DNA of 64,000 nt, taken from Nitrososphaerota archaeon. Lineage in GTDB: Archaea > Thermoproteota > Bathyarchaeia > Bathyarchaeales > Bathycorpusculaceae. Position numbers and translations under genes: made by a program. The notes beneath the pieces are model-generated. The model had not been told where the DNA came from and did no database searches. It was given only the letters and a program-made list of their open reading frames with translations. Below are positions 1,282 to 53,118 of the stretch, one piece after another (within the stretch, counting starts at the first letter, position 1; each line of letters opens with the position of its first letter). Location: NCBI GenBank assembly GCA_031274765.1, contig JAISPR010000035.1:12351-76350 (forward strand), given 5' to 3'.

Positions 1282-1357
1282 CCATAAAAACACATACCTT
1301 TAGACAAATAAAGAACAAAACTAAAACACTAGCTGAATGCCTTTGAGACAAAAATAT

Positions 1358-1489
1358 GGCCTTTCGCTATTTTAGGTGGGTACACTCATTCGCCCTTCTT
1401 TAAACTTCTTATGTTCTCCCTTAGTGCTCCATACAACATTATACCGCAACAAAACTTATTGACCCCACCCACCTAATTTGACGAATAAC
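1358..1489 (+). mobile_element. Repeat family A, copy 1 (~132 bp MITE-like element)
   Basis: Near-identical to 11422-11553, 17030-17160 and 28963-29091. Internal 8-bp stem AGGTGGGT...ACCCACCT. Flanked by a 9-bp direct repeat CAAAAATAT (1349-1357 and 1490-1498). Confidence 0.8.
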
Positions 1490-1553
1490 CAAAAATATCG
1501 TTAATGCGCCAGCACAAAATAATCTTCACCAGTCACATACTTTATGCGCCATA

Positions 1554-5641: not shown

Positions 5642-5795
5642 ATTTGATGCTCCAGGTAATATGTTTTTTAAAAAAAGTATTACTCAATATAAGTGTTACT
5701 ATAACCTAAATTAGTAATAACATCACAGCACAACACACAAACAACAAACACCAACACACAACCAAACCACCACCCAACCACACAAATAAACAACA

Positions 5796-6584
5796 CTATC
5801 GAAACATAGCCGCACGATTCGCAATTAAAGCCGCAACAGCCCCCGCAGCCACCCCTCCATCAATATTAACAACCGCCAAACCCAAAGAACATGACTGAAG
5901 CATCGCCATCAAAGCACCCACCCCCTTTGCACCAAACCCATAACTATTAGAAGCAGGCACCCCAATCACCGGCACATCCACAAGACCCGCCACCACCGAA
6001 ACCAAAGCACCTTCCCGCCCCGCAACCACAACCACAACATCCACATCATTTTCAATAAGCCGCCTCAGAGGCTCAAACAAACGATGCATACCCGCAACCC
6101 CCACATCATAAAACGAAAACACCACCCCACCCATCTCTTCTACAATAACCCTGACTTCTTCAGCAAGCGATATATCACTTGTCCCAGCAGTCAAAATACC
6201 CACCCGACCACCCCCACCACGCCCACCCCGATAAAACCCATTTTTGAGCACCACCATCCTTGCCGGCTCATTAACCGACACAACAAAATCCGCATCCAAA
6301 CCACCCATAGCTCTAAGCGCCTCCAAATGCTCCACACTACACCGACTCACAATAACACGCCCATTATTTGCCAACATCACCCCACAAATTTGCACCACCT
6401 CCCGAGGCGATTTACCCTCAGCCAAAATAACCTCAGGCACACCTTTGCGCAACTCACGACCACCATCCAACTTTGCTAAACACCCCACCTCATCGACAAC
6501 AAACAATTTGAGCAGTTTCTCGGCTTCAACAACCGAGAGCTCCCCGCAAGAAACCTTGAATAGAATCTCTTTTAACGACTGCAT
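5796..6584 (-). CDS. larB: LarB, pyridinium-3,5-biscarboxylic acid mononucleotide synthase (PurE-like)
   Basis: Motifs GILTAGTSD, VAGMHRL, VVVAGREGAL and PVIGVPAS...G are typical of LarB/AIR-carboxylase-like proteins. Start taken at the 10th codon (ATG 6584). Confidence 0.9.
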   Translation of the reverse strand: MQSLKEILFKVSCGELSVVEAEKLLKLFVVDEVGCLAKLDGGRELRKGVPEVILAEGKSPREVVQICGVMLANNGRVIVSRCSVEHLEALRAMGGLDADFVVSVNEPARMVVLKNGFYRGGRGGGGRVGILTAGTSDISLAEEVRVIVEEMGGVVFSFYDVGVAGMHRLFEPLRRLIENDVDVVVVVAGREGALVSVVAGLVDVPVIGVPASNSYGFGAKGVGALMAMLQSCSLGLAVVNIDGGVAAGAVAALIANRAAMFR

Positions 6585-10135: not shown

Positions 10136-10836
10136 AGTTTATTCGAACCCGTTTTCGAATCCAGGAAACTATAGAATTCACAAGTCAATAGATTTTCAGT
10201 AACAAAACATTTAGCCTCAAGACTCATAGATCGTGTCTGCCACGGACAGATAAAACATGTTGTCATTACATCCACATATACCAATTGAGCTCTTTTAAGG
10301 TTTGTTTTCTTTCCCACCCACAAATTCAAAACCACCACCACCGCTATTTCTTACTTACCCTCACAATTTGAATAAAAATTTACAATGAACCAAAGCCCAG
10401 AAAAGCACCAAAAACACTACTAAAAAACAACCAAACAACCCAAACAAAAACCACAACCAAAACTAACACCCACCCACAAGTCCCCTACCATGTCATCACA
10501 AACAAACAACCAAATAACCAAACATAACTCAAACCACGCCATGACCCAATCACAAAAACATAAACTCGACACCAGACAAATACTAAACCTCAGACCGTGC
10601 AATAACGCTTTGTTCTGAGAAATTTTCTCATTTTATTGTACTTCCAATATATTCGAGATGATTTTTAACAATTTTTTCCACAATGGCACCAATACATGAA
10701 AAATCATAACAACACCCCACATGTTATTTGTTTTTTACACATTCTGCGATATAATTTTGTGGTCAAGATGCAGTTTAGGTAGTTCAATTCACCAAAAAAA
10801 GCAACGTATTTAACACGCAGAAAATATATTTACAGC

Positions 10837-11421
10837 TTGGTGAAAATACCGCAATTTCGTGATCCAATTCATGGATTTATTGCTATAAGTGAGGACGAGC
10901 AGAGAATAGTGATGCTACGCCTTTTCAACGACTTAGAAATATACGCCAGCTTGCAACTACCTATCTTGTTTATCATGGGGCAGAATACTCGTTTTGGGCA
11001 TTCATTAGGTAATGCATTTAGTCACTCGAGCATTTGACTCGGTAGTTTCCAAGTCAGAGAATTTATTCAGAAATAATTCTAAAGAAAATGCCGCTGTAAT
11101 AAAGTGGTATCGGCAAATATTGCGGTTAATTGCGCTTACACATGATTTAGGCCATACCCTTTTCACATGGAACAGAAGAACTGTTTTCTCAAAAGTATAA
11201 ACATGAAGATTATACGCGAAAACTTGTTGAAAAAACCGAAATTGCAGATTACATAAAAGAAATAGGTGAGAAATTACAAAAAGAACTCGCCGATGAACTC
11301 CAAGCTACACCTGACGAATTGGTTAAAAAGTATAAAATACAAGCCATTACGCCACAATTAATCTGGATAATATATGGTAAAAAACCCAGCATCGATAAAA
11401 TAGCTAAGGATGAATATATTT
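10837..11421 (+). pseudogene. HD-domain phosphohydrolase (SAMHD1/dGTPase-like) pseudogene, frameshifted and 3'-truncated
   Basis: Recognisable HD-family segments lie in three different frames: DPIHGFI...TRFGHSLG (frame 1), MHLVTRAF...LTHDLGH (frame 2) and PFSHGTEELF..KHEDYTRKLV (frame 0). The coding signal stops where repeat A copy 2 begins. Confidence 0.7.
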
Positions 11422-11553
11422 GGCCTTTCGCTATTTTAGGTGGGTACACCCATTCGCCCTTCTTCAAGCTTCTTATGTTCTCCCTTAGTGCTCCATACAA
11501 CATTATACCGCAACAAAACTTATTGACCCCACCCACCTGATTTGACGAATAAC
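11422..11553 (+). mobile_element. Repeat family A, copy 2
   Basis: About 95 percent identical by eye to copy 1. No matching flanking direct repeat. Confidence 0.8.
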
Positions 11554-11572
11554 CAAAGGAAAATTTGGTTAG

Positions 11573-15645: not shown

Positions 15646-17029
15646 GGATTATCAAGAGGGAAATTGTGACAGGCTTATTTAATGTTCGCCAATAAAATTA
15701 AAAAGAACCCCTTTGCAGGTAACCGGTCTTTGTCCTTAAGGGATGTAAAGCTGTAGAGGGCCGGTAGGTAAAGTCCAGAGGGGGAAATATTGTGTGTGTA
15801 GGGGGAATTTTTTAGTCAAGAAACCTTGACTAAGCCTTAGTCCAGAAATCTTGACAAAAATGCTTTTACGTTCTAAAACTAAGCAGAACATGGTGAGTGA
15901 TATGCCAACAAATCATTATGTGTTAAACCATAGACACATTGTTCGGATACAGAAGAAGGGTAGCCTTCTTTGCTTAATATGTCATAAACCCATTCTTGAG
16001 GGACAAAGGGTCGCAACTCGAAAATGCACCGCGCTAAGACATGAAGAATGTTATCAAGCTTCATTTCTTTGAGCAACATCAGTGGTCTTGAAAATAAAAT
16101 ACACCCAGATCGCGAAGGCTAAATGTAGGGATCCGCAGGCATAATTGAGAGGCTGGTAGAAGCTATTGCAAAAAGATGGAATTGCGGATGCGCATTAACT
16201 TAGTGCCCTATCTATGGATGGATAAACAAAGCAAATGAATATAAAATATCAACTCTTTACATCAATAAAGGGACTATGAGCACCTCAAGTTGGCTACATT
16301 AGGGTCCAGTCTCTTATCAACCACTTTAAAGCATCGACCAGAGTAAACGGGTTATATTTTGCAAGTGTCATTTAGTTGTCAGAGATAATCAATATCGTGT
16401 GAAGACAGAAATGGTGTTTTAGGTTTATTTTTGGATGTAGGTTAGGGGGATTATATGTCAAATATTGTATTTGTGTGTGTTGCTCTCTAATTGCTTCTAT
16501 CATGACTTGTTCATAGGTTATTTTGGTCTTGGCGTTACAAGTCAATCAACAGATATTTTGTTTTCTGTAATATTGTTTGTTTTTTCGAATTTAATTTATA
16601 TTCAATATTTTGGATAAAATTGTGTTGAATTATTTATGTAATTTGTTTATGAGTGTTTTACGTCATTTGTTGTTCATTTGGCATGTTTTTTAACATTGAG
16701 TGGATAAAAATAATTTTGTTTTGTTTAAAATAACAAGGGGTTTAATTTAAAATATGTTACTTTAATCAACGGCTCTCATATTTCAGGTTCAATCAACCTT
16801 GCATTTGTAACTAAGTTGTTATCTTAAATAATAAGTTTTATCTTGTCAGATAACAAGAGAAAAGGTGGGAAGTATGGAAAATTCGAAATTTGGCAGTCAA
16901 CGTTGGCAGAAACTGACAAAATTATAAAAAATAATTTTTTACCTGCATAAAACACTCCGTGACTTAATATGAGAACGATAGGGCCCATAGGCACTGGAGC
17001 CATCTGCAGATAAAAGAGAAGTAAACAAT

Positions 17030-17160
17030 AGCCTTTTGCTATTTTAGGCGGGTACACTCATCCACCCTTCTTCAAACTTGCTATCTTCTCCCTCATGCCC
17101 CATATAACAGTATACCACAACGAAACTTATTGGCCCTACCCACCTGATTTGACGAATAAC
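17030..17160 (+). mobile_element. Repeat family A, copy 3 (most diverged)
   Basis: Aligns over its full length to copies 1, 2 and 4. Flanks AACAATA / AACAAATA resemble a degraded target duplication. Confidence 0.7.
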
Positions 17161-17301
17161 CAACAAATACTGCTGTAACAGATACATAGCAGATAACGAA
17201 CAAGTAGAGGCATCATTTTTGACAATGAAGTTGGAAGTAATAGAAGAATAGATTTGATATAAATAATAGAGAAATGAGTAATAACAGCATCCACAGTTCA
17301 T

Positions 17302-17874: not shown

Positions 17875-18032
17875 TTACATTCAACAGTTTGGAAAAAAAT
17901 ATTTTGAATTGTTTATATTACCGGTTGTTGCGTGTTTTTGATTATTTTTACAATGACTTTCTTATTTTTTCGAATATTTTTTGAGCATGATTTAATTTTT
18001 GACTGTTTAGGTCAAACTACCGAATGCAAGTA
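17875..18032 (+). mobile_element. MITE family B, copy 1 (~160 bp)
   Basis: Aligns to 26065-26233 along its whole length. Its terminal inverted repeats are degraded relative to copy 2. Confidence 0.75.
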
Positions 18033-18182
18033 TTTAGATGTTACAACACAATGTTTTAGCGAGAGTTTTTCAAAGTTTTCTTCAGCCTCGTCTGTAAAAA
18101 CACGATCCCAACCAGCAACACCACAATCACAACCAACAAAAACACAACAACAACTCCAACCAACCTAACCCAAAAAACACCC

Positions 18183-26064: not shown

Positions 26065-26233
26065 AATTACTTACATTCGGCAGTTTGGGAAAAAAATATT
26101 TTGAATTGTTTATATTACCGGTTGTTGCGTGTTTTTGATTATTTTTACAATGGTTTTCTTATTTTTTCGAATATTTTTTGAGCATGATTTAATTTTTGGC
26201 TGTTTTAGGTCAAACTGCCGAATGCAAGTAATT
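26065..26233 (+). mobile_element. MITE family B, copy 2 (best-preserved; 23-bp terminal inverted repeats)
   Basis: AATTACTTACATTCGGCAGTTTG at the left end versus the reverse complement AATTACTTGCATTCGGCAGTTTG at the right end (22/23). No ORF inside. Confidence 0.8.
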
Positions 26234-26354
26234 AAAAAGAAACCCGAAGAATTATTTTACAAAAACTAATGTTTCCAACAACTAAGAACAAATGTAAGTT
26301 CTGTAATACAAGACCTTTTATTTTAGGGAAGTATGTTCTTTATTGGGAAAAATT

Positions 26355-28778: not shown

Positions 28779-28851
28779 TCAATTGATTTTAGGATGTGTT
28801 TAGCTCTCAGTGAAAATGTGTTTGTCTTGTGTGTTTAGTTGGAATTTAAAT

Positions 28852-28962
28852 TTTGGTGGTGTGCCAATTTAGAATCGTTATTTTGGTGCACAATCAAATT
28901 CGATTGACATACAGGCTTGGCAAATTTTCCAAGGTTTGAAGAAAAAAGCTGTGCTTAATTTA
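28852..28962 (+). repeat. Repeat family D, direct copy, abutting repeat A copy 4
   Basis: Aligns to the reverse complement of 1554-1670. The ~45 nt to its left (28806-28851) also match the reverse complement of 17575-17620. Confidence 0.55.
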
Positions 28963-29091
28963 GGCCTTTCGCTATTTTAGGTGGGTGCACTCATTCTTTC
29001 TTCTTTAAACTTCTTATATTCTCCTATGTTCCATACAATATTATACCGCAACAAAACTTATTGACTCCACCCACCTGATTTGACGAATAAC
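28963..29091 (+). mobile_element. Repeat family A, copy 4
   Basis: Full-length match to copies 1-3 with a 3-bp internal deletion. Confidence 0.8.
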
Positions 29092-29483
29092 CCAAAAATT
29101 GGGCGTCCATATGATCAGGATAATCAGAGTCCAGGTAAGTTTAGTTGGGTATATTTTGTAGGGCCGCTTCAGGAGAGAAAGAAATTTTTTGATGTTGCAT
29201 CAAGCGGCTGGAGTAGTATTCAAATATTCACCATACCCGAGGAGTCTTCGTCATCATCGCCTTCACAAACAACAAACTCGCCTTCACCATCTTCAGCATC
29301 TAACAACAGTCAACAACAACACCCAGATTCTGTCTCATTCAATCAGCAGTTTTGTTGATGGTCGGTGCAATTTTTGGAGGTTCTATTGTAGCTGTGTGCT
29401 TATTTGTCGTTTTAGGAAAATCATTCAGTCAAAAGGCAAACAGTAACAGGAGCAAAAGAATTGACAATCATCACAAAATATAA
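29092..29483 (+). pseudogene. 3' remnant of a surface-protein gene (S/T-rich linker plus C-terminal TM anchor), frameshifted
   Basis: Frame 1 encodes ...SSGWSSIQIFTIPEESSSSSPSQTTNSPSPSS. The TM anchor MVGAIFGGSIVAVCLFVVLGKSF... lies in another frame (from 29358). There is no N-terminal part upstream, only repeats D and A. Confidence 0.4.
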
Positions 29484-41364: not shown

Positions 41365-41515
41365 TTGTTTTATGTTTGGTAATTTGGAAAAAATATTTTG
41401 AATTATTTATATTCAGGTTATTGTAGGTTGGTTGTTTTGTAATAATTTTTATTTTTCAAATGTTTGGGGTAATTTAATTTTTGGTTGTTTTAGAGGTCAA
41501 ATTGAATGTAGGTTT
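41365..41515 (+). mobile_element. MITE family B, copy 3 (degenerate)
   Basis: The core TTTGGAAAAAATATTTTGAATTATTTATATT...TTTAATTTTTGGTTGTTTTAGAGGTCAAATTGAATG aligns to copies 1 and 2. The termini are eroded. Confidence 0.5.
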
Positions 41516-41580
41516 GCAGGTAACTTGGAGAGGGTTGTGTGAGGGTAGTGTTGTTGTTGGGTTTGGAGTGTGTTTGGAGG

Positions 41581-42420
41581 TTATTCTAAGAACGGGGATA
41601 GGTATTGGATAATTGACTCATATGCGTCTATGTCAGGTTCTTGGGGGTTGTTGGGTTTGTCTGTTCCAATTAGCTGTTCACCGTCGTTTTCAGAGACGGG
41701 TTCATTATATTTGATTCGAAACACGCATCGTATAATACGATCGTTGCAGGTTTCAAAGGTTAAGAGGGGATATTTTACGCCTGGCAAAAGCAGGTCGTAT
41801 TTTTTTTCGGTTTTGGGTTCGATGAGAAACATTTTGATGTCTGCTAATGCCAAAAGGCTCAATAGCAAAGAGCCCTGATAATCAGGAAAGCTTGTTTGCT
41901 GATTGGCTTGGGCAATTTTTGTTTTTGCCTCTTTTATTTTTGCATCTAGGTCAGTGTTGTTCCACAGCTCTGTGCCGCATTTTTGTGCTTGCGCAATGGC
42001 TTGTTTAGTAAAACATGTGGTAGCTAGAATTATTGTATGGTTGCAGACGTGGATAGTTTGGGTTTGCTTGGCAGATAAAACAATAGCATCAGTTAAGGTA
42101 TAGTTTGGAGGATAATTTCGTGCTATAACAGCGGTTTTCTCTTTGTTTTTAGAAACGATTAAGTCGACACCGTTATTAGTTAGCCATCTGCTTTGCACCT
42201 CATATTCTAGTGTTTCAAAAAGCCATTGCATAAAAAGGCCAAATTCTTTAGTTGTGAGGCATTCAACCCGATAGGTTCCTGTATTTGGTAGAGGCGGGGG
42301 CAGTTTTTCTACATAGGTTTTTATCGCGGGTTTCTTGCCGGTTTGGGAATGAGTTTTTTTTATTCTATTTGCTAACTCTTCTGCTTTGTCTGGGGGAATT
42401 TGTAACTTGTCAGCTAACAA
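41581..42420 (-). CDS. Mrr-like restriction-endonuclease-fold protein with a substituted catalytic triad plus an unknown C-terminal domain
   Basis: LTTKEFGLFMQWLFETLEYEV...NGVDLIV...TAVIARNY...IILATTCFTKQAIAQAQ parallels the Mrr_cat layout, but ARN replaces Q/E-x-K. Confidence 0.6.
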   Translation of the reverse strand: MLADKLQIPPDKAEELANRIKKTHSQTGKKPAIKTYVEKLPPPLPNTGTYRVECLTTKEFGLFMQWLFETLEYEVQSRWLTNNGVDLIVSKNKEKTAVIARNYPPNYTLTDAIVLSAKQTQTIHVCNHTIILATTCFTKQAIAQAQKCGTELWNNTDLDAKIKEAKTKIAQANQQTSFPDYQGSLLLSLLALADIKMFLIEPKTEKKYDLLLPGVKYPLLTFETCNDRIIRCVFRIKYNEPVSENDGEQLIGTDKPNNPQEPDIDAYESIIQYLSPFLE

Positions 42421-42494
42421 TCCGACTATATCGATGTCGGGGGATTGTTCGGTTATTTCTTTTAGAATACCGTTGAATTTTAGGGGGTTTATTC

Positions 42495-43841
42495 TTAGGC
42501 CTCCTTTTTAACATGTTTGGGGCATAGTTTTTTTCTAAATTCATCAGTGTGTGTGAGGTTGAGTTTGGAGAATGATTTGCCACAGATATCACAAACGTCA
42601 TAGTGGTAGATGCATACACTTGTGTTATCATGGCTGCATTTGAATTCAAGAAAACGGCTGTGACGTTTACCACAGACGGTACATATGAAACCTTTGTCGC
42701 GTTCAAAATATTCGTCTAGGGCTTCGTCGTGAGCTAGTGGTGCTTTTTTGGAGTAAATTTTTCCTGAGTCCAAAGATTGGAGGGTGCAGTCTGTGCAGAC
42801 ATAGAAGCCGTCTTCAGTTACATAGCCTTTGGAATGGGTTTTTTTGCATAGGGCACAGACGATTTCAGGAGTGTCAATGCCTATAGTGACACTGGATTGC
42901 AGGGTTGCTTTGTTGTCAAGGGTGATTTCGAATTTAACTTTTGAGGTGTTGATTATGAGGAGGTTTTGGAGTTTTACAGTTAGACTGGTTTGGTAGGATT
43001 CAGCTTCGCGCTGTAGAAGGGCTTCATAGTCGGATTGCCATTTTTGGAAGTCAAAATCATGTTTCTTTGAGATGACCCTTTCTCGGCGCTCCCGTTTTAG
43101 CCGTCGCTCAAAACTGCGCAGGCGGGTCAGTTTTTCTTTGACAAGGGGCAACTCAAAGAGCACCATTTTTGCGCCTAAAAGTTCCTTGAGTTTTTGATCC
43201 GCAACTGTTTTTAGTGCATCATAGAGTTGGGGGTTTATTTTTGATTTAGAGTCCTGAACGTTTAGAGTTGTGTTTTCCAAAGCAAGGGCTAAATTGAACT
43301 CTGCATTGATGCAGTTGGCTTTTTCGTCAAGCAGGATGAGGAGGGTTTCTTTGTTTTTTGCGCGGAGCTTGTTTTGAAAACTCACAGTGTAGTAGAACTG
43401 AAAAAACCGCACCGTTTCTTTTTTGAGAGGTTTTATGGCGGTAATTTTGCCATTGTTTATTTGGTGAAAATAGGGTTCGGATTTGGGACAAATACAGATA
43501 CCCTCTACAAACTGAGTTTTTTGGCAATCCAAGCAGGTATTTGGGGTATCTCTAAAATATGTTAAGAGGAGCTTTTCGAAACTGTCGCGGGGACTAAGAG
43601 AAATTTGGCACAGTACCCCATTGTTTATGGATTCTTTGAGCATATGCTGGAAAACAGGGCTCCCAACTGTGAGCAGGGGGATTTTTTTCTCTCGTGCAAT
43701 GTTTGGCTGATAGGTAAATTCTTGGGCGGGTTCATTTGGATAAGTAACAGTAACAGTGTCAGGGGTTTGAGGGGTAATTGTGCCGCCTTGGGATTGAATA
43801 TAGGCTTCAAAGAAATGTCTGAGTTTTTCTTCAGGACTCAA
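42495..43841 (-). CDS. multi-zinc-ribbon protein with a YqhG-like N-terminal region (SNF2 partner)
   Basis: 448 aa. N-terminus LRHFFEAYIQSQGG...LLTVGSPVFQHMLKE; a basic coiled coil; CxxC pairs at aa ~103-118 and four or more in the last 120 aa. ATGA overlap with the SNF2 gene. Confidence 0.7.
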   Translation of the reverse strand: MSPEEKLRHFFEAYIQSQGGTITPQTPDTVTVTYPNEPAQEFTYQPNIAREKKIPLLTVGSPVFQHMLKESINNGVLCQISLSPRDSFEKLLLTYFRDTPNTCLDCQKTQFVEGICICPKSEPYFHQINNGKITAIKPLKKETVRFFQFYYTVSFQNKLRAKNKETLLILLDEKANCINAEFNLALALENTTLNVQDSKSKINPQLYDALKTVADQKLKELLGAKMVLFELPLVKEKLTRLRSFERRLKRERRERVISKKHDFDFQKWQSDYEALLQREAESYQTSLTVKLQNLLIINTSKVKFEITLDNKATLQSSVTIGIDTPEIVCALCKKTHSKGYVTEDGFYVCTDCTLQSLDSGKIYSKKAPLAHDEALDEYFERDKGFICTVCGKRHSRFLEFKCSHDNTSVCIYHYDVCDICGKSFSKLNLTHTDEFRKKLCPKHVKKEA

Positions 43842-45802
43842 TCTAAAACGCCTTGTGTGAATTGTTTGGCTAATTCTTGATTTTTCTGTACCATGTTGAG
43901 ATTCTCAGCTAGTTTTTCTAGTTCTTTTGGGATGTCAAGGCGTGAATTGCTGCGTAGAAGTATTTCTCCGATGGTTTTTTGTATATCTTGGGCATCCTCT
44001 TTTAGTTCAGCTAGTATTGTTTCCATCTTGCCTACGGCCATGGTGAATAAATCGATTTTTTGGTAGAGTACATGTAGTACGTAGTCGTCGATGGTGTCTT
44101 TGACGGCTAAGTTGAAGATGGTTACGTCGCGTTCTTGTTTGTAGCGGTGGATTCGGCCGATGCGTTGTTCGATTTTCATGGGGTTCCAGTGTAGGTCATA
44201 GTTAAACATAACGCAGCAGTTTTGTAGGTTGAGGCCTTCTGCGGCGGCGTCGGTGGCGATGAGGTATTTGGTTTTGCCGTTTTTAAAGTTGGTAATCACT
44301 TTATCTCGTTCGGTTTGATTCATATCGCCTACATAAACGGCGGCTTGTCCAAACTCGGCGTCTATGAGTTCTTGTATTTTGTGTGCGGTGATTTTGCGTA
44401 GACAGAAAAGGACTGCTTGTTCACGAGGGATCTCGTTTAGGACGTTTCTTAGCAGTTCTGTTTTTGCGCCTTTGACTTTTTGTGCTAGTTCTATTAGTTT
44501 GGTGGTGTCTTGTGTTTCTATGGGGAATCGTTGTTGGCGTCTTTTGAGGGATTCAATTGCAGCATAGGGTGAGCTTGAGAAGGATTGTTGTAGGGTAATG
44601 GCTTGGAATACCAGTATGGCGTTGCTTTGGGAAGTTGTTATTTTTCTTGTGGGGTTCTCTGCAATTAGGGTTTCAATTGTTTTGTAGTGGTTGTTGCTAA
44701 CTTTGCGTAGATATGTGGTTGCTTCTTCGATGAATTCACGTTCGGGGTTGTTTGGTTTGAGTGTTCGTGATTCGACGCATCGTTTTGTGAATGGGATGCC
44801 TGTTTGTTCTCGGCGTGTGCGGCACATGACTTCTTGGATGGTGTGTTTGAGGTAGGTGGCTTCTTGTTGTTTGACTACTCGGCTTCGGGTGTCTTTTGCG
44901 AATCGGGAGATAAATGCGCGTTCGCTGCCTAAGAGTCCGGGTTGAATCAGGTCTACGATGCTGTAGAGGTCGGTTAGGCGATTGCATAGAGGGGTTGCAG
45001 TTAGCAGGAGCAGGTGGTTTTTGCGCATGTCAGCTATTGTTGCTCGGCCTTTGCTGTGGGTGTTGCGAAAGGCGTGGGCTTCATCTATTACGATTAGGTC
45101 CCAGGTTCGGTTTATGAGGGGGTGATGTTTTTTTAATAGAAGGTTATGGGAACATATCAGGCGGTTGTTGGAGGCTAAATTGGCACGTTTTCCAGCGCCA
45201 TTGGCTATGGTGAAAGATTCTCCGAATTTTTCTGCCATTTCGTTTTTCCACTGGGATAGTAGACTTTTGGGTGTAACAATTAGCACTGAGTTGACTTCTT
45301 CTCTTAATAGGAGTTCTTTCATTATTAACCCAGCTTCGATAGTTTTTCCCAAGCCTACTTCGTCAGCTAAGATGGCGTTTGAGTTCATTTCGTTTATGAC
45401 TTGTAGAGCAGTGTGTAGTTGAAAGTTGTAGGGGATCAGTTTTGTACGTATGGCATCTATTGAGAGGAGGTGGTTGATTTTGTCGGTTTGTTTGAGTTGT
45501 GAGGCTTCTATGCTTAGTTGAAAATTTTGTAAGGAGGTATAGTTGTTTGTTTGGATTTGTTTTTTTATGTTTTTGGGGTCTGAGCAGGTGATTGTGTAGC
45601 GGGAGTTGGTTTTTTTGTTGGGGAGGTTTTCGTCGTCGAGTTTGCATATGACTGTTAGGGTTTCAGTTTGGGGGGTTGGTTTTTTTGATTTAGGGTTTGG
45701 TTTGATAGCTAAGTCGGCGAGGGTAAGTGTTGGTTCTAGGTTGAGTTCTGAGTAGGTTTTGGGGTTTTGTTTTGGTGGGATTTTTGTCAAGAGTATCGAC
45801 AT
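43838..45802 (-). CDS. SNF2-family helicase/ATPase
   Basis: Motifs ILADEVGLGKT (I), VIDEAHAFRN (II), LLLTATPLCN (III) and NPMKIEQRIGRIHRYKQ (VI). The ~130-aa N-terminal region is low-complexity. Confidence 0.9.
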   Translation of the reverse strand: MSILLTKIPPKQNPKTYSELNLEPTLTLADLAIKPNPKSKKPTPQTETLTVICKLDDENLPNKKTNSRYTITCSDPKNIKKQIQTNNYTSLQNFQLSIEASQLKQTDKINHLLSIDAIRTKLIPYNFQLHTALQVINEMNSNAILADEVGLGKTIEAGLIMKELLLREEVNSVLIVTPKSLLSQWKNEMAEKFGESFTIANGAGKRANLASNNRLICSHNLLLKKHHPLINRTWDLIVIDEAHAFRNTHSKGRATIADMRKNHLLLLTATPLCNRLTDLYSIVDLIQPGLLGSERAFISRFAKDTRSRVVKQQEATYLKHTIQEVMCRTRREQTGIPFTKRCVESRTLKPNNPEREFIEEATTYLRKVSNNHYKTIETLIAENPTRKITTSQSNAILVFQAITLQQSFSSSPYAAIESLKRRQQRFPIETQDTTKLIELAQKVKGAKTELLRNVLNEIPREQAVLFCLRKITAHKIQELIDAEFGQAAVYVGDMNQTERDKVITNFKNGKTKYLIATDAAAEGLNLQNCCVMFNYDLHWNPMKIEQRIGRIHRYKQERDVTIFNLAVKDTIDDYVLHVLYQKIDLFTMAVGKMETILAELKEDAQDIQKTIGEILLRSNSRLDIPKELEKLAENLNMVQKNQELAKQFTQGVLD

Positions 45803-46189
45803 CTACTGGCCATTTGGGTATAAAAACCTAAAATGCATCTGGGAGGGGTTTGTGTGTGCTTTTTTTTGGGTGTAGAGGGGAATTTTCTCTGCGATGGATT
45901 ATTAATTTGGGAAAATTTTTCAATTGAATTTGACAAAGGTGTTTAGCCATTGATTGGGGCTTTGTTTTGGGGATTGTTGGAAAGTGTTTGAGAGTGATTT
46001 AACATATTATTGTTAAAATTGTACAGGGAAAAGAACATATAGAAAAATACCCAATTAAGCACTCGATTTCAAGCCTATTTTCGCTATAGCTCCAAAATTC
46101 AAGTTATTTTACCAGTTGAAGCACACACTTTAGTTTTTAGCAAATTTTAAATACAAATTAAAGTCATTATTACTTTCGAGGTTACCAGC

Positions 46190-46240
46190 ATGGCCAAGGC
46201 AGCAAAAAAAGAAACAAAAAAAGCTAAAAAGAAAAAATAA
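46190..46240 (+). CDS. 16-aa Lys-rich micro-ORF (MAKAAKKETKKAKKKK)
   Basis: ATG preceded by GAGGT 8 nt upstream and an AT-rich TATA-like tract (TTTTAAATACAAATTAAAG) ~35 nt upstream. Too short for coding statistics. Confidence 0.25.
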   Translation: MAKAAKKETKKAKKKK

Positions 46241-46323
46241 AGCCGCAAACAAGCCTACCCCACCCTCATTTTTCTTTCACCCTCAACACCACACAACCAA
46301 ATACAAACCCAACACATCAATTA

Positions 46324-46341
46324 AAAAAGATTTATCTTATC
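46324..46341 (+). promoter_or_regulatory. TATA-box-like element upstream of pyrD
   Basis: AAAAAGATTTATCTTATC centred ~29 nt upstream of GTG 46362. Confidence 0.3.
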
Positions 46342-46361
46342 AACCCCGCCTATACTAAACG

Positions 46362-50506: not shown

Positions 50507-51456
50507 TGGTGTGTATGGATAAGATATTAGTTGTAGGTGTAAAAGCTTGGGGAAAGCATGGGGTTTTGGGGTTTGAGAAGGAATATGCTCAGGCTTTTAC
50601 GGTTGATGTGGAGATAGGGGCAGATATTTCGAAGTCTTGTTTGAGTGATGATTTAGAAGACACTATTAATTATGCGGGTGTTTATGACATAATAAGGTCG
50701 GTTATTGAGGCTCAGAGTTTTGCACTTGTTGAACGACTTTCTTATGTAATTATAGAGAAAATTTTTGCATTTGATTCACGTATACAGAGAATTAAAATCC
50801 GGATTATTAAAAATAAGGCGCCCTTAGAGGGTCAAATAGATGGTGTGGGGGTAGAAATTGAAAAAAACAGAACGCCAGATTGGATACAGCCCCTGGCGGC
50901 AAAAACAGATAGCACCCCAAGCAGTAGCCCCAAAATGGGTTTGCAAACAGAAAAAAAGGGCAGGTATAAAACGGTACTATCTTTGGGTTCAAACATCGGT
51001 GACAAAAAACAAAACATCCAAACCGCAATAGAAATGTTAACCGAATCAGAGAACATAATTGTATTGAATAAATCCAAATTATATGAAACCGAACCTGTGG
51101 GCTATATTGAACAGGAAAATTTTTATAATGCCGCAATTCTTGTTGAAACAGTTTTGAATCCTTTTGAATTGTACAATAAAATCAAAGATATTGAAAATAA
51201 TTTAGGTCGAAAAAAAACTTTTAAATGGGGGCCAAGACCCATAGATATTGACATAATAGCATATGAAGGTTGCATAATTAATACAAAAGGATTGACTGTA
51301 CCACATAAAGAATACATGCAAAGAGCATTTGTCCTAAAACCCATCTCAGATATGCCCGACGCCATAGAAATAACAGGCCTAAACATGACACTTATAGAAA
51401 AAATGACCTGCTGCGCAAATGATTATCAAGGCATAAAATACATCGGCCCACTATAA
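50503..51456 (+). CDS. folK: fused dihydroneopterin aldolase (FolB) / HPPK (FolK)
   Basis: N-terminal FolB-like ILVVGVKAWGKHGVLGFEKEYAQAF. C-terminal HPPK pattern LSLGSNIGDK...LYETEPVGY...WGPRPIDIDII. Confidence 0.85.
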   Translation: MMVCMDKILVVGVKAWGKHGVLGFEKEYAQAFTVDVEIGADISKSCLSDDLEDTINYAGVYDIIRSVIEAQSFALVERLSYVIIEKIFAFDSRIQRIKIRIIKNKAPLEGQIDGVGVEIEKNRTPDWIQPLAAKTDSTPSSSPKMGLQTEKKGRYKTVLSLGSNIGDKKQNIQTAIEMLTESENIIVLNKSKLYETEPVGYIEQENFYNAAILVETVLNPFELYNKIKDIENNLGRKKTFKWGPRPIDIDIIAYEGCIINTKGLTVPHKEYMQRAFVLKPISDMPDAIEITGLNMTLIEKMTCCANDYQGIKYIGPL

Positions 51457-51558
51457 CCACAAACCAACCAAACCCATAAAAATTCACCACCAACATCAAC
51501 ACCTAAAAACCACAAAAACACAAAAACACACATAAAACAAACCGACAAACACCACACA

Positions 51559-53118
51559 TTAAAATAAAACACCATCCTGAACATAACCCTTAGCAGTTTT
51601 TAACGCTATCTCAGCTTTTGTCAACTCTTTGCCAAGATAAGCAGCATGCTCTAAACTTGATACCAACCCCAACTCTAAAATTTTTGCATAAACCACACTA
51701 GCCGTTCTACCCTTAATAATATTAACAGGCTCAGATAAATCAAAAACAGAATAATGAACAGCAACTAACAAACGCCTATCAGAATCTATAAAAATCCTAA
51801 AAACCCCCAAACAATCAAGGGTAACAGACTCAACTTTTTCAGAGACAACAACAAGATCCTTAACATCCAACTCTATAGCCTCATCATAGGGTTCCCCATA
51901 AACGCGCTTATCTTTAAAAATCAAAAGGTCAACACCAAGATCTTTGGGAACAGACCCACGATATTTAGCCAAAAACATCATTTTCGCCGCAACAACCTCT
52001 TCAAAAACAGTACCTTTAGCCTTAACACTCTTCTCAGTTGCCAAAAGAATACACCCACCCACTTCAGCAGAAAGACGAGTCAACACAGCATTTAACCCCA
52101 CAGAATCAGCATCAAATAACTCAGTCACATTAGAAACACCCACAAACAAAGGCACCTCAGGATTTCGCAACGCAAACTCTTTGAAAGCTATAAAAGAATT
52201 AAGAATTTCCTGTGGATCTAAAATCAAGTCAGCTATGAGACGATTCACACCAAGACCGCGCGCTTTAACAATAATTTCCTCAAGAAACCGCACACGTTCC
52301 AAAACAGTTTTTGGAAAATAACCCAAGCGCTGGTTTGTGGGTATGACAACAACTGCAACATTTTTGACATAGGGCGCTATGGCTTCGATATTACCGGCAT
52401 CAGCACTCAAAACCAGTTGTACACCTGCTTGCACCGCCGCTTTAATCTCTTCAGGATCAAGTGTATCAATACTTACTGACAAATCAGTGACTTCTCTAAC
52501 CCATTGTACCAACTGAGTTACTTTTTCAGGCCAAGATTCTCCTGCAACCATACCTATATCAATAAAATCGGCACCGTCTAATGCAAAACGTTGAGCGATT
52601 TTTTGAATAGATTTCTTGTCCATTAATGCGGCATCTACGATTTCAGCAAGCACCCGTATGGGGAAATCTTTGCCGATGGCAACCTCGCCCACTAACATAT
52701 TGCCAGGTCTTTGGAGCAAAATATTGCGTTTATTTTCGATTTTTTCTATATCTGCTAAAGCCTTCTGGGTCAGTTTTTCCTGTAACAATTCGTCTGCGGG
52801 TATAGTAGTTGAGAGTTCTATTTCGCAGAGCATATCAAGCACTATTGGAAGGTCAGCAGCATACCGAGGGCCTTTAAAGGCAGGAACACCAACGGCTTGA
52901 GTAATATCAGCGGTGTTACCTCGGAGTAATCCAGGAGTCAAAATATGGGTAAAATCAGAGAGGGTTTTGTCTTTTAAACCGTTGATGATTGATTGGGGTG
53001 TTAAAAATGCCGCAACGGCAGTTTTTAGGGGAATAATTTCTGTTTTAACTTGACTTTGTTTAGCGTATGTAGCAAGGGCTTCTGATGCTAGCTGTCCAGT
53101 GACCAAGAGCACCTTCAT
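51559..53118 (-). CDS. archaeal dihydropteroate-synthase-related protein (methanopterin-type, MJ0301-like) with a C-terminal extension
   Basis: 519 aa. Central pterin-binding-like TIM segment (GADFIDIGMVAGE...SIDTLDPEE...). Adjacent to RFAP synthase. Confidence 0.75.
   Translation of the reverse strand: MKVLLVTGQLASEALATYAKQSQVKTEIIPLKTAVAAFLTPQSIINGLKDKTLSDFTHILTPGLLRGNTADITQAVGVPAFKGPRYAADLPIVLDMLCEIELSTTIPADELLQEKLTQKALADIEKIENKRNILLQRPGNMLVGEVAIGKDFPIRVLAEIVDAALMDKKSIQKIAQRFALDGADFIDIGMVAGESWPEKVTQLVQWVREVTDLSVSIDTLDPEEIKAAVQAGVQLVLSADAGNIEAIAPYVKNVAVVVIPTNQRLGYFPKTVLERVRFLEEIIVKARGLGVNRLIADLILDPQEILNSFIAFKEFALRNPEVPLFVGVSNVTELFDADSVGLNAVLTRLSAEVGGCILLATEKSVKAKGTVFEEVVAAKMMFLAKYRGSVPKDLGVDLLIFKDKRVYGEPYDEAIELDVKDLVVVSEKVESVTLDCLGVFRIFIDSDRRLLVAVHYSVFDLSEPVNIIKGRTASVVYAKILELGLVSSLEHAAYLGKELTKAEIALKTAKGYVQDGVLF

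What the first reader, a model, noticed from the sequence alone, without database searches (positions are those of the whole stretch)
41581..45802. Uncharacterised three-gene module: SNF2 helicase, multi-Zn-ribbon YqhG-like partner, and a Mrr-fold protein with a substituted catalytic triad
Three co-directional minus-strand genes are tightly packed: an ATGA overlap at 43838-43841, then a 74-bp gap.
1. A 654-aa SNF2 ATPase with all core motifs, behind a ~130-aa K/P/T-rich low-complexity N-terminus.
2. A 448-aa protein in three parts. Its N-terminus (LRHFFEAYIQSQGG...LLTVGSPVFQHMLKE) resembles, from memory, the YqhG family that partners the Bacillus SNF2 protein YqhH. It continues with a basic coiled coil (RLRSFERRLKRERRER). 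The last 120 aa hold at least four CxxC pairs (CALC..CTDC, CTVC, CDIC).
3. A 279-aa protein laid out like the Mrr restriction-endonuclease catalytic domain, but with ARN where Mrr has Q/E-x-K. It also has an unassigned ~100-aa C-terminal domain.
A translocase plus a Zn-ribbon adaptor plus a nuclease-fold (possibly sensor-only) subunit looks like a DNA-surveillance or defence module. It is flanked by a MITE copy and a 560-bp spacer. I cannot match it to the gene sets of DISARM, BREX, Zorya, Druantia or Hachiman.
Basis: partly seen in the sequence, partly recalled or inferred. Interest (0 to 1): 0.75.

Follow-up and report, generated by a model that had tools for sequence, protein, structure and literature searches.

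The report
Split RapA-like SNF2 three-gene module
Three tightly linked genes in this Bathyarchaeia genome encode a DNA motor, a zinc-binding partner and a restriction-nuclease-like protein without the catalytic motif; they look like a bacterial YqhH/YqhG (RapA-type) machine fixed in one archaeal lineage, not an anti-virus defence system.

Summary
The three minus-strand genes are real, and they travel together. All 59 species-level genomes recovered, almost all Bathy-6 / Ca. Bathycorpusculum, carry SNF2, then the partner, then the Mrr-like gene, in that order. Bacterial relatives (Clostridia-like and high-GC contigs) keep the module, sometimes with genes 2 and 3 fused.

Gene 1 is an intact SNF2 ATPase of the YqhH/HepA clade. 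Gene 2 matches no Pfam family. Its N-terminus is homologous to YqhG, the usual partner of YqhH. Its model matches only E. coli RapA in the PDB, so genes 1 and 2 resemble a RapA-type ATPase split in two, with added zinc modules. Gene 3 has an Mrr fold, but none of 57 archaeal copies keeps the D…(Q/E)xK motif.

Neighbours are housekeeping genes. The SNF2 is as conserved as PyrD/PyrK. No defence model calls the trio and no viral contig carries it.

- The overlap is TTGA, not ATGA.
- The "74-bp gap" encodes the conserved N-terminus of gene 3, which lacks a canonical start codon here.
- The substituted triad is I-A-R, not A-R-N.

Most likely this is a non-cutting remodelling motor. By analogy it clears RNA polymerase or other proteins from DNA. 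It is a new variant of a poorly characterised known kind.

The parts
43838..45802 (-). Gene 1: SNF2 ATPase, 654 aa, YqhH/HepA-like clade
   Evidence: It hits Pfam SNF2-rel_dom (115.7 bits) and Helicase_C (91.6 bits). Motifs I, II, III and VI are intact. It is 33% identical, end to end, to a YqhH-type SNF2 that sits next to a PF11079 YqhG gene. It is 43% identical to the bacterial module orthologue. It aligns colinearly with RapA residues 151-632 at 25% identity.
45593..45802 (-). Gene 1 residues 1-70: K/P/T-rich extension specific to this lineage
   Evidence: K+P+T make up 41% of these residues. The stretch is not matched in most related loci or in bacterial orthologues.
44045..45448 (-). Gene 1 residues 119-586: ATPase core (two RecA-like lobes plus SNF2 inserts)
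   Evidence: BLASTP aligns it to RapA 151-632. The NCBIfam RapA model matches in one contiguous stretch, residues 81-609. The subfamily signature NYDLHWNPMKIEQRIGR is present.
43838..43841 (-). TTGA overlap: TTG start of gene 2 and TGA stop of gene 1
   Evidence: Read directly from the sequence. The same junction occurs in 48 of 52 related loci. Translational coupling is an inference.
42495..43841 (-). Gene 2: partner protein, 448 aa, with a YqhG-like/RapA-C-like N-domain and zinc modules
   Evidence: No Pfam, NCBIfam or PADLOC family matches. A search of 5.8 billion proteins gave 187 homologues; the named ones are Bathyarchaeia or Nitrososphaerota MAGs. A profile search of 1.84 billion representatives gave 49 hits.
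42882..43841 (-). Gene 2 residues 1-320: N-domain (alpha/beta head, long beta-hairpins, 54-residue helix)
   Evidence: The AF2 model has mean pLDDT 75.8. The top four Foldseek PDB hits are all E. coli RapA (E 1e-6 to 6e-6, about 322 aligned columns); the next hit has E 0.07. The N-terminal 38 residues align to YqhG (hhalign E 6.6e-6).
43464..43535 (-). Gene 2 residues 103-126: internal Cys/His cluster (C103, C106, C118, C124, H126)
   Evidence: C103, C106, C118 and H126 are invariant in 25 homologues; C124 is nearly invariant. This stretch has low confidence in the model.
42786..42857 (-). Gene 2 residues 329-352: CxxC...CxxC zinc ribbon
   Evidence: C329, C332, C349 and C352 are invariant. 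There are weak matches to TFIIB/Rrn7-type ribbons and to the TRIM21 RING.
42513..42683 (-). Gene 2 residues 387-443: further Cys/His zinc modules
   Evidence: C387, C390, C402, C410, H413, C417, C420, C440 and H443 are invariant. Bacterial relatives expand this region into long CxxC arrays.
41581..42492 (-). Gene 3, extended: Mrr-fold protein, most likely 303 aa; the canonical start is missing (ATA at 42490-42492)
   Evidence: Homologues are mostly 296-319 aa, and their N-terminus is encoded in frame in the supposed gap. ATG occurs at this position in most relatives. The closest relative shares the ATA but has an upstream ATG, which a TAA closes off in this window.
41905..42264 (-). Gene 3 residues 77-196: Mrr-type PD-(D/E)xK fold without the canonical motif
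   Evidence: It passes Pfam Mrr_cat. Foldseek matches AspBHI, MspJI and AF1548. hhalign to E. coli Mrr gives E 6e-7, with D aligned to D and Q-A-K aligned to I-A-R at 42118-42126. None of 57 family members has D...(Q/E)xK.
41584..41904 (-). Gene 3 residues 197-303: conserved C-terminal domain specific to this lineage, fold unassigned
   Evidence: It is the most conserved region of the protein (mean column conservation 0.68, against 0.58 for the Mrr fold). The model shows a helix, five strands and a C-terminal helix. It has no counterpart in bacterial orthologues.
45803..46361 (.). 559-bp divergent spacer between gene 1 and pyrD; contains AT-rich TATA-like elements 17-35 nt upstream of the gene 1 ATG
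   Evidence: Read from the sequence. Promoter function is an inference and was not tested.
41370..41530 (.). Degenerate copy of a MITE-like repeat downstream of gene 3; probably not part of the module
   Evidence: It aligns with the intact copies at 17888-18036 and 26085-26234.

Best explanation
The trio encodes one ATP-driven DNA translocase complex that most likely does not cut DNA. It is a derived branch of the bacterial YqhH/YqhG module, which is itself a RapA/HepA-type SNF2 ATPase split into two polypeptides.

- **Gene 1** is the motor.
- **Gene 2** supplies in trans the scaffold that RapA carries as its fused C-terminal Spacer/CTD region. The TTGA overlap would couple its translation to that of gene 1. 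Its three or four zinc modules serve as a protein- or nucleic-acid-binding adaptor.
- **Gene 3** binds gene 2; the two are one polypeptide in some bacteria. It contributes a catalytically dead Mrr-fold domain that holds DNA rather than cleaving it, plus a lineage-specific C-terminal domain.

Anchored in this way, the motor pulls on duplex DNA to dislodge a bound protein. By analogy with RapA, the most likely target is stalled or post-termination RNA polymerase.

The module reached the Bathy-6 lineage from bacteria and became a fixed chromosomal gene set.

**Shown:** gene content, co-inheritance, folds, loss of the catalytic motif, genomic context.
**Inferred:** physical assembly of the three proteins, which part of RapA is matched, the target, and the direction of transfer.
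For: **Co-conservation**
- The order SNF2, partner, Mrr-like is kept in all 59 species-level loci.
- Pairwise identities of the three proteins correlate (r = 0.81-0.92 over 43 loci).
- The module is also kept in Clostridia-like contigs (L067, L068), in L071, and in high-GC bacteria. In the high-GC bacteria genes 2 and 3 are fused (L069, L066). P0082 is a fusion within Bathyarchaeia.

**YqhH/YqhG link**
- Of 40 related short SNF2 loci, 35 have a long ORF starting just downstream.
- Six of these partners are PF11079 YqhG.
- An iterated HMM of the first 100 residues of gene 2 hits the partner in 12 of the 40 loci (E 1e-9 to 1e-17).
- hhalign of gene 2 against YqhG gives E 6.6e-6.
- The SNF2 is 33% identical, end to end, to a YqhH-type protein.
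- L101 is a natural fusion of the SNF2 with this N-domain.

**RapA link**
- The only significant PDB fold matches of gene 2 are four RapA entries. One is an N-terminally truncated RapA, and each aligns over about 322 columns.
- In RapA, the RapA_C domain spans residues 605-965.
- The best local profile match falls at RapA 814-859.
- The SNF2 aligns colinearly with RapA 151-632.
- YqhH is called HepA/RapA in the B. subtilis literature (PMC7385302).

**No canonical nuclease site**
- None of 57 copies has D...(Q/E)xK.

**Housekeeping character**
- Flanking genes are Sua5, ECF transporter, AP-endonuclease-2, PyrD/K and FolE/P/B/K.
- Within the genus the locus stays in the same position, and SNF2 identity (78-83%) equals that of PyrD/PyrK (78-85%).
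- The bacterial copy lies between accDA and thrS.
- No fourth conserved gene accompanies the trio.
- No viral contig or viral fold match was found.
- The partner has no PADLOC hit.
Against: - Sequence methods do not link gene 2 to RapA_C. hhalign is non-significant; the real score lies about 2.8 SD above shuffled sequences, and the best shuffle exceeded it.
- Foldseek gave no residue ranges and low TM-scores (0.2), so matching to RapA's C-terminal half is inferred, not shown.
- The RapA N-terminal Tudor domains, which contact RNA polymerase, are absent.
- The NCBIfam RapA score is far below its cut-off (172 against 576). By score the SNF2 is closer to DrmD and DpdE models than to RapA.
- One related lineage (L071) keeps a canonical D...QAK Mrr motif, so the ancestral module may have cut DNA. 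In addition, 13 of 57 archaeal copies have D...QxR.
- The distribution across domains is rare and patchy (49 hits in 1.84 billion representatives). That pattern is typical of accessory genes.
- No direct evidence ties the module to RNA polymerase. A TFB-like gene lies nearby in only 11 loci.
- YqhH and YqhG are themselves barely characterised.
Confidence: 0.5

Rival explanations
1. It is an anti-virus or anti-plasmid defence module. The Mrr-fold subunit senses foreign or modified DNA. The SNF2 motor then translocates on that DNA and blocks its replication or transcription, or recruits a host nuclease. This would be a split, nuclease-dead relative of ZorD or of Type IV restriction enzymes.
For: - The Mrr fold is typical of modification-dependent restriction enzymes (AspBHI, MspJI).
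- Gene 3 weakly matches the ZorD C-terminus (E 3e-4).
- Homologues match NA-iREase1, a sensor-type inactive nuclease domain of conflict systems.
- The SNF2 scores best against defence-system helicase models (DrmD, BrxH, HmaA).
- One lineage keeps an intact D...QxK motif.
- The module is rare and occurs in both domains, which implies horizontal transfer.
Against: - All defence-model scores are far below their cut-offs (DrmD 238 against 950; ZorD 75 against 1500). PADLOC has nothing for gene 2.
- No methyltransferase, ZorABC, PLD or other companion gene lies nearby.
- Flanks are housekeeping genes in both archaea and bacteria.
- The trio was present in every one of the 59 species-level genomes recovered. 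Its position within the genus is stable, and its conservation matches housekeeping genes.
- It is absent from viral contigs.
- The parent YqhH/YqhG family is not known as a defence system.
Confidence: 0.2
2. It is a DNA-repair or replication-fork remodelling motor. The dead nuclease fold recognises branched or damaged DNA, as the degenerate nuclease domains of FANCM or ERCC1 do. The zinc modules recruit partners, as in ZRANB3, HLTF or Rad5. The SNF2 motor then remodels the structure or clears a lesion-stalled polymerase.
For: - Deleting yqhH in B. thuringiensis lowers UV survival (PMC10054049).
- Combining a motor, zinc fingers and a nuclease-like domain recurs in eukaryotic fork remodellers (established knowledge).
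- An AP-endonuclease-2 family gene lies convergent to gene 3 in this genus.
- The conservation and context are housekeeping-like.
Against: - The neighbouring AP-endonuclease gene is conserved only within the genus.
- No repair genes co-occur across the 59 loci.
- No structural match to fork-remodelling accessory domains was found.
- This rival overlaps the best explanation if the target is RNA polymerase stalled at a lesion.
Confidence: 0.15

Closest known systems
Bacillus YqhH (HepA) / YqhG gene pair (YqhG is Pfam PF11079)
   Same: - Both have a short SNF2 ATPase of about 550-650 aa followed directly by a partner gene, often with a small overlap.
- The window SNF2 is 33% identical, end to end, to a YqhH-type protein next to a true YqhG.
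- The partner N-termini are homologous.
   Different: - Gene 2 does not pass PF11079.
- Gene 2 carries about 130 extra residues of zinc modules.
- A third, Mrr-fold gene is present.
- The host is an archaeon.
E. coli RapA (HepA), the RNA-polymerase recycling Swi2/Snf2 ATPase
   Same: - The ATPase cores align colinearly.
- RapA is the only significant structural match of gene 2.
- The combined length of genes 1 and 2 approximates that of a RapA-type protein.
   Different: - The protein is split into two polypeptides.
- There are no N-terminal Tudor domains.
- Pfam RapA_C is not detected.
- The NCBIfam score is 172 against a cut-off of 576.
- Zinc modules and an Mrr-fold subunit are added.
ZorD of type I Zorya (SNF2 helicase fused to an Mrr-like nuclease)
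   Same: An SNF2 motor is combined with an Mrr-type fold. Gene 3 weakly matches the ZorD C-terminus.
   Different: - The nuclease motif is lost here.
- The domains are on separate proteins with a partner between them.
- No zorABC genes are present.
- The ZorD model scores 74.6 against a cut-off of 1500.
E. coli Mrr, MspJI and AspBHI (Type IV restriction endonucleases)
   Same: Gene 3 shares the catalytic-domain fold.
   Different: - Q-x-K is replaced by I-A-R.
- The N-terminal DNA-recognition domains of those enzymes are not detected.
- Gene 3 has its own conserved C-terminal domain.
DISARM DrmD and Dpd DpdE SNF2-like helicases
   Same: They give the best-scoring named models for the ATPase core.
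   Different: - Matches are partial, in two stretches, at about a quarter to two-fifths of the cut-off.
- None of the companion genes is present.

Membership tests
SNF2 family ATPase | Pfam SNF2-rel_dom plus Helicase_C above cut-off, with intact motifs I, II, III and VI | tested here: met
   Scores are 115.7 and 91.6 bits. GLGKT, DEAH, TATP and QRIGR are found at residues 150, 240, 268 and 546.
YqhH/YqhG module | The SNF2 belongs to the clade whose members are followed directly by a YqhG gene | tested here: met
   The SNF2 is 33% identical over residues 88-645 to the L091 SNF2, whose neighbour scores 300.9 bits on PF11079. In 35 of 40 related short SNF2 loci a long ORF starts just downstream. 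Six of those partners were confirmed as PF11079 YqhG.
YqhH/YqhG module | The partner passes Pfam PF11079 (YqhG) | tested here: not met
   PF11079 gave no hit in 25 archaeal members at E up to 10, nor in 10 distant members. Only the N-terminal 38 residues align significantly (hhalign E 6.6e-6, probability 85%).
RapA / HepA (NCBIfam NF003426) | Equivalog score at or above 576 bits | tested here: not met
   The score is 172.2 bits, in one stretch from residue 81 to 609.
RapA / HepA | N-terminal Tudor-like domains (PF18339, PF18337) | tested here: not met
   They are present in E. coli RapA and absent from gene 1.
RapA / HepA | A RapA_C (Spacer plus CTD) module | tested here: inconclusive
   PF12137 gave no hit. 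At fold level, however, the four RapA entries are the only significant PDB matches of gene 2 (E 1e-6). Which RapA residues are matched was not reported.
Mrr-type restriction endonuclease (PF04471) | Domain model above cut-off, with the fold confirmed | tested here: met
   The score is 26.2 bits against a cut-off of 21. Foldseek matches AspBHI, MspJI and AF1548.
Mrr-type restriction endonuclease (PF04471) | Catalytic D...(Q/E)-x-K residues | tested here: not met
   The window copy has D...I-A-R. None of 57 family members is canonical. The L071 relative is canonical.
Zorya type I (ZorD) | ZorD equivalog score and neighbouring zorA/B/C genes | tested here: not met
   The score is 74.6 against 1500. 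Neighbouring genes are housekeeping, and there is no fourth conserved gene.
DISARM (DrmD) | DrmD equivalog score and drmA/B/C plus a methyltransferase nearby | tested here: not met
   Scores are 238 against 950 and 226 against 610. No companion genes are present.
Any PADLOC v2 defence system | All components match models of one system | tested here: not met
   Gene 2 matches no family. Gene 3 has only a weak ZorD tail match. Gene 1 gives generic partial SNF2 matches. DefenseFinder was not available.

The most novel reading that the evidence does not exclude
A bacterial YqhH/YqhG-type (RapA-like) RNA-polymerase-clearing motor was captured by the Bathy-6 archaea and retargeted to their Pol II-like RNA polymerase. 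The zinc-ribbon array would replace RapA's Tudor domains as the polymerase-binding element, and a dead Mrr nuclease would serve as the DNA anchor. This would be the first RapA-type polymerase recycling factor in Archaea. It would also imply that YqhG-family proteins in general are the detached C-terminal half of RapA.
Probability: 0.2. Interest if true: 0.75.

Novelty: new variant of a known kind. Interest (0 to 1): 0.5.

Why it matters
- **YqhG.** YqhG has long had no assigned function. The fold match to RapA, the conserved gene order and a natural SNF2 fusion give it a testable role: the detached C-terminal scaffold of a RapA/HepA-type ATPase.
- **A compact remodeller.** The branch described here adds zinc modules and a nuclease fold that has lost its active site. 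That gives a self-contained three-protein remodeller in which each part can be expressed and tested.
- **Archaeal biology.** SNF2 motors are rare in archaea. One fixed across a whole abundant but uncultured lineage suggests a need that other archaea meet differently, possibly clearing RNA polymerase from DNA.
- **Annotation practice.** A helicase next to a restriction-nuclease fold should not be called a defence system without checking genomic context and active-site residues.

Tried and rejected
- **Sequence link from gene 2 to RapA.** hhalign of the gene 2 alignment against E. coli RapA was not significant. This held for the 25-sequence alignment and for the broadened 33- and 54-sequence N-domain sets. 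A profile search of PDB sequences returned only weak RING/B-box zinc-finger hits.
- **hhalign of YqhG against RapA.** Nothing was found.
- **Pfam, NCBIfam and PADLOC on gene 2.** Nothing beyond marginal zinc-finger models.
- **Viral origin.** A scan of viral contigs and a BFVD fold search were both negative.
- **Metagenome scan with the L071-type partner (P0238).** No relatives were found, so the taxon of the lineage with the intact nuclease motif remains unknown.
- **A fourth conserved gene.** None exists. The best candidates (a TFB-like gene, a creatininase and ABC ATPases) occur in about 10-11 loci each.
- **Long SNF2 relatives (about 960 aa) as true RapA.** Rejected for the one tested: L124 has neither RapA_C nor Tudor domains.
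- **Literature searches.** Searches on archaeal SNF2 with Mrr and zinc ribbon, on Bathyarchaeia SNF2, and on SNF2 with an inactive restriction endonuclease found nothing on this module. The Bathy-6 genome paper does not mention it.
- **Rfam and tRNA scans of the window.** Both were empty.

Full report
**1. What is in the window**

- Gene 1 passes Pfam SNF2-rel_dom and Helicase_C. Motifs I, II, III and VI are intact.
- Gene 2 matches no Pfam, NCBIfam or PADLOC family.
- Gene 3 passes Pfam Mrr_cat (26.2 bits, cut-off 21).

Homologues of gene 2 identify the window as a Bathyarchaeia genome. Its closest relative is Candidatus Bathycorpusculum termitum.

**2. Corrections to the observation**

- The gene 1/gene 2 junction reads gaT TGA, so the overlap is TTGA (TTG start, TGA stop), not ATGA. 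The same junction occurs in 48 of 52 related loci.
- The "74-bp gap" before gene 3 is coding.
  - It encodes in frame the 24 N-terminal residues that all homologues share.
  - 53 of 59 relatives start with ATG, and 45 of the 59 start at the position that is ATA here (42492-42490).
  - The closest relative shares the ATA but has an upstream in-frame ATG. In this window a TAA closes off that ATG.
  - Gene 3 is therefore most likely 303 aa, and how it is initiated is unresolved.
- The low-complexity tract of gene 1 covers residues 1-70 only.
- The "MITE copy" is a degenerate third copy of a repeat whose intact copies lie at 17888 and 26085.

**3. The three genes are one unit**

- A scan of one genome per species found 59 loci. 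Almost all are from the Bathy-6 / Bathycorpusculum lineage, in termite guts, soils and bogs.
- Every locus carries SNF2, then the partner, then the Mrr-like gene, in that order. Identities to the window are 66-83%, 48-76% and 35-66% respectively.
- Pairwise identities of the three proteins correlate (r = 0.81-0.92).
- No fourth gene is conserved alongside them.
- A profile search of 1.84 billion representative proteins found only 49 relatives of gene 2. Some of the distant ones lie in bacterial contigs that keep the module:
  - a Clostridia-like contig with SNF2 614 aa, partner 665 aa and Mrr_cat 340 aa;
  - L071 with 588, 709 and 305 aa;
  - two high-GC bacterial contigs in which genes 2 and 3 are a single protein.
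- The SNF2 proteins of these five sub-lineages are 40-50% identical over their full length. They share the signature NYDLHWNPM(K/R)(I/L)EQRIGR.

**4. Where the module comes from**

A metagenome scan with that SNF2 alignment returned 80 loci.

- Forty carry short SNF2 genes (about 550-800 aa). In 35 of these a long ORF starts just downstream, often with a 4-nt overlap.
- Six of those partners are true Pfam PF11079 YqhG proteins.
- The window SNF2 is 33% identical, end to end, to one of these YqhH-type proteins.
- An iterated HMM built from the first 100 residues of gene 2 finds the partner in 12 of the 40 loci (E 1e-9 to 1e-17).
- hhalign of the gene 2 N-domain against a YqhG alignment gives E 6.6e-6 over the first 38 residues. 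The alignment stays colinear beyond that at relaxed settings.
- In one locus (L101) this N-domain follows the SNF2 core in the same polypeptide.

Gene 2 itself does not pass the Pfam model.

**5. The RapA connection**

- The AlphaFold model of gene 2 (mean pLDDT 75.8) has four significant PDB matches. All four are E. coli RapA, one of them an N-terminally truncated form. E-values are 1e-6 to 6e-6 over about 322 aligned columns, and the next hit has E 0.07.
- RapA's only non-ATPase region of that size is RapA_C, residues 605-965. It comprises the Spacer and CTD domains (PMC8501970).
- I infer, but could not show, that this is the region matched. The tool gives no residue ranges, and sequence profiles are not significant. 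The best local match falls at RapA 814-859, about 2.8 SD above shuffled sequences.
- The SNF2 aligns colinearly with RapA 151-632.
- B. subtilis YqhH is referred to as HepA/RapA and described as poorly characterised (PMC7385302).

Together these results suggest that YqhH plus YqhG, and genes 1 plus 2 here, form a RapA-type ATPase split in two.

**6. Gene 3**

- The model (mean pLDDT 83.4) matches the nuclease domains of AspBHI and MspJI, and AF1548.
- None of 57 family members has the D...(Q/E)xK motif. The aspartate is kept in 40 of 57, and 13 of 57 have D...QxR.
- The Clostridia-like and high-GC orthologues are also degenerate. The L071 orthologue has a canonical GVD...VIQAKRY motif. The nuclease was therefore probably active in an ancestor and lost repeatedly.
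- The C-terminal domain (residues 197-303) is, with the N-terminal helices, the most conserved part in archaea (mean column conservation 0.68 and 0.66, against 0.58 for the Mrr fold). It has no counterpart in the bacterial proteins.

**7. Defence or housekeeping**

Evidence against defence:
- In the window the flanking genes are Sua5, a DHH phosphoesterase, an ECF transporter, an AP-endonuclease-2 family protein, PyrD, PyrK, FolE, FolP and FolB-FolK.
- Four relatives keep the trio between pyrDK and the ECF genes. In them the SNF2 is as conserved (78-83%) as PyrD/PyrK (78-85%).
- A bacterial copy lies between accDA and thrS.
- No viral contig carries the module.
- All named defence helicase models score far below their cut-offs.

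Evidence that favours an accessory or defence origin:
- The module is rare and occurs in both domains.
- The Mrr fold is typical of restriction enzymes.
- One lineage keeps an intact motif.

On balance I read the archaeal trio as a fixed, non-cutting remodelling motor (confidence 0.5). The most likely target is RNA polymerase, by analogy with RapA. RapA removes post-termination complexes, and its Spacer domain contacts the polymerase. The rivals are defence (0.2) and a repair or fork-remodelling role (0.15). The repair reading draws on the UV phenotype of a B. thuringiensis yqhH knockout.

**8. Limits**

- The genome scan used two short peptide patterns, so the distribution is a lower bound.
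- I did not count Bathy-6 genomes that lack the trio.
- Physical assembly of the three proteins is inferred only from fusions, gene order and co-inheritance.
- No structure-prediction jobs remained for YqhG or for a multimer.

**9. Verdict**

The module is real and tightly co-conserved. It is a new variant (zinc modules, a degenerate Mrr subunit, an archaeal host) of the known but barely studied YqhH/YqhG kind. Interest is moderate.

Noticed in passing
window 42490-42524: Gene 3 has no canonical start codon for its conserved N-terminus. The usual ATG is ATA here. An upstream in-frame ATG (inside the ...CPKH codons of gene 2) is followed by TAA after five codons. The closest relative shares the ATA but keeps that upstream frame open. 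Possible explanations are a near-cognate start, re-initiation after the gene 2 stop codon, a frameshift fusion, or an assembly error.
   Followed up: partly
window 17888-18036, 26085-26234, about 41370-41530: A MITE-like repeat of about 150 nt has perfect terminal inverted repeats (CATTCGGCAGTTTG / CAAACTGCCGAATG) in two copies. A decayed third copy lies downstream of gene 3.
   Followed up: partly
window 1354-1493, 11418-11557, 17025-17164, 28959-29098: A second repeat family of 140 nt is present. Two copies are 96% identical and two are about 61% identical. A 52-nt inverted pair lies at 1620-1671 and 28851-28902.
   Followed up: no
window 5741-5801, 10407-10587, 18109-18179, 46284-46328, 51439-51565 and others: Many intergenic stretches are strongly C/A-rich on one strand and G/T-rich on the other (for example 41530-41580). 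GC and AT skew switch with gene orientation across the window.
   Followed up: no
window 46190-46240 (+): A tiny lysine-rich ORF (MAKAAKKETKKAKKKK) lies in the 559-bp spacer upstream of pyrD. It may be chance and was not checked in relatives.
   Followed up: no
L012, L016, L050, L030, L027, L033, L022, L047, L028, L036, L058: A highly conserved TFB/TFIIB-like gene (82-99% identical among these loci) lies within a few kb of the trio in 11 soil Bathy-6 genomes. Its side and orientation vary. This could be lineage synteny or a weak hint of a link to transcription.
   Followed up: partly
P0211, P0016, P0043, P0069; loci L021, L027, L033, L058: Some Bathy-6 genomes have a gene 2 of 577-581 aa. The extra length is further CxxC modules and a small C-terminal domain that resembles the tail of the bacterial partners. 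The 448-aa form in the window looks like a shortened version.
   Followed up: partly
L101:5242-12033: A 2263-aa open reading frame in a metagenome contig fuses the SNF2 core (residues 268-679) to the YqhG/gene-2-like N-domain (residues 808-901). About 1300 further residues have no Pfam match.
   Followed up: partly
L014:8306-12637 and six other loci: A helicase of 1276-1443 aa with AAA_11/AAA_12 (Upf1/Dna2-like superfamily 1) domains lies convergent just downstream of the trio in 7 Bathy-6 genomes.
   Followed up: partly
L038 (Methanocella sp. MAG) and L063 (Aminicenantes MAG): Two of the 59 genome hits are labelled as non-Bathyarchaeia, yet their proteins are 54-61% identical to the window's. 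This more likely reflects binning contamination than transfer.
   Followed up: no
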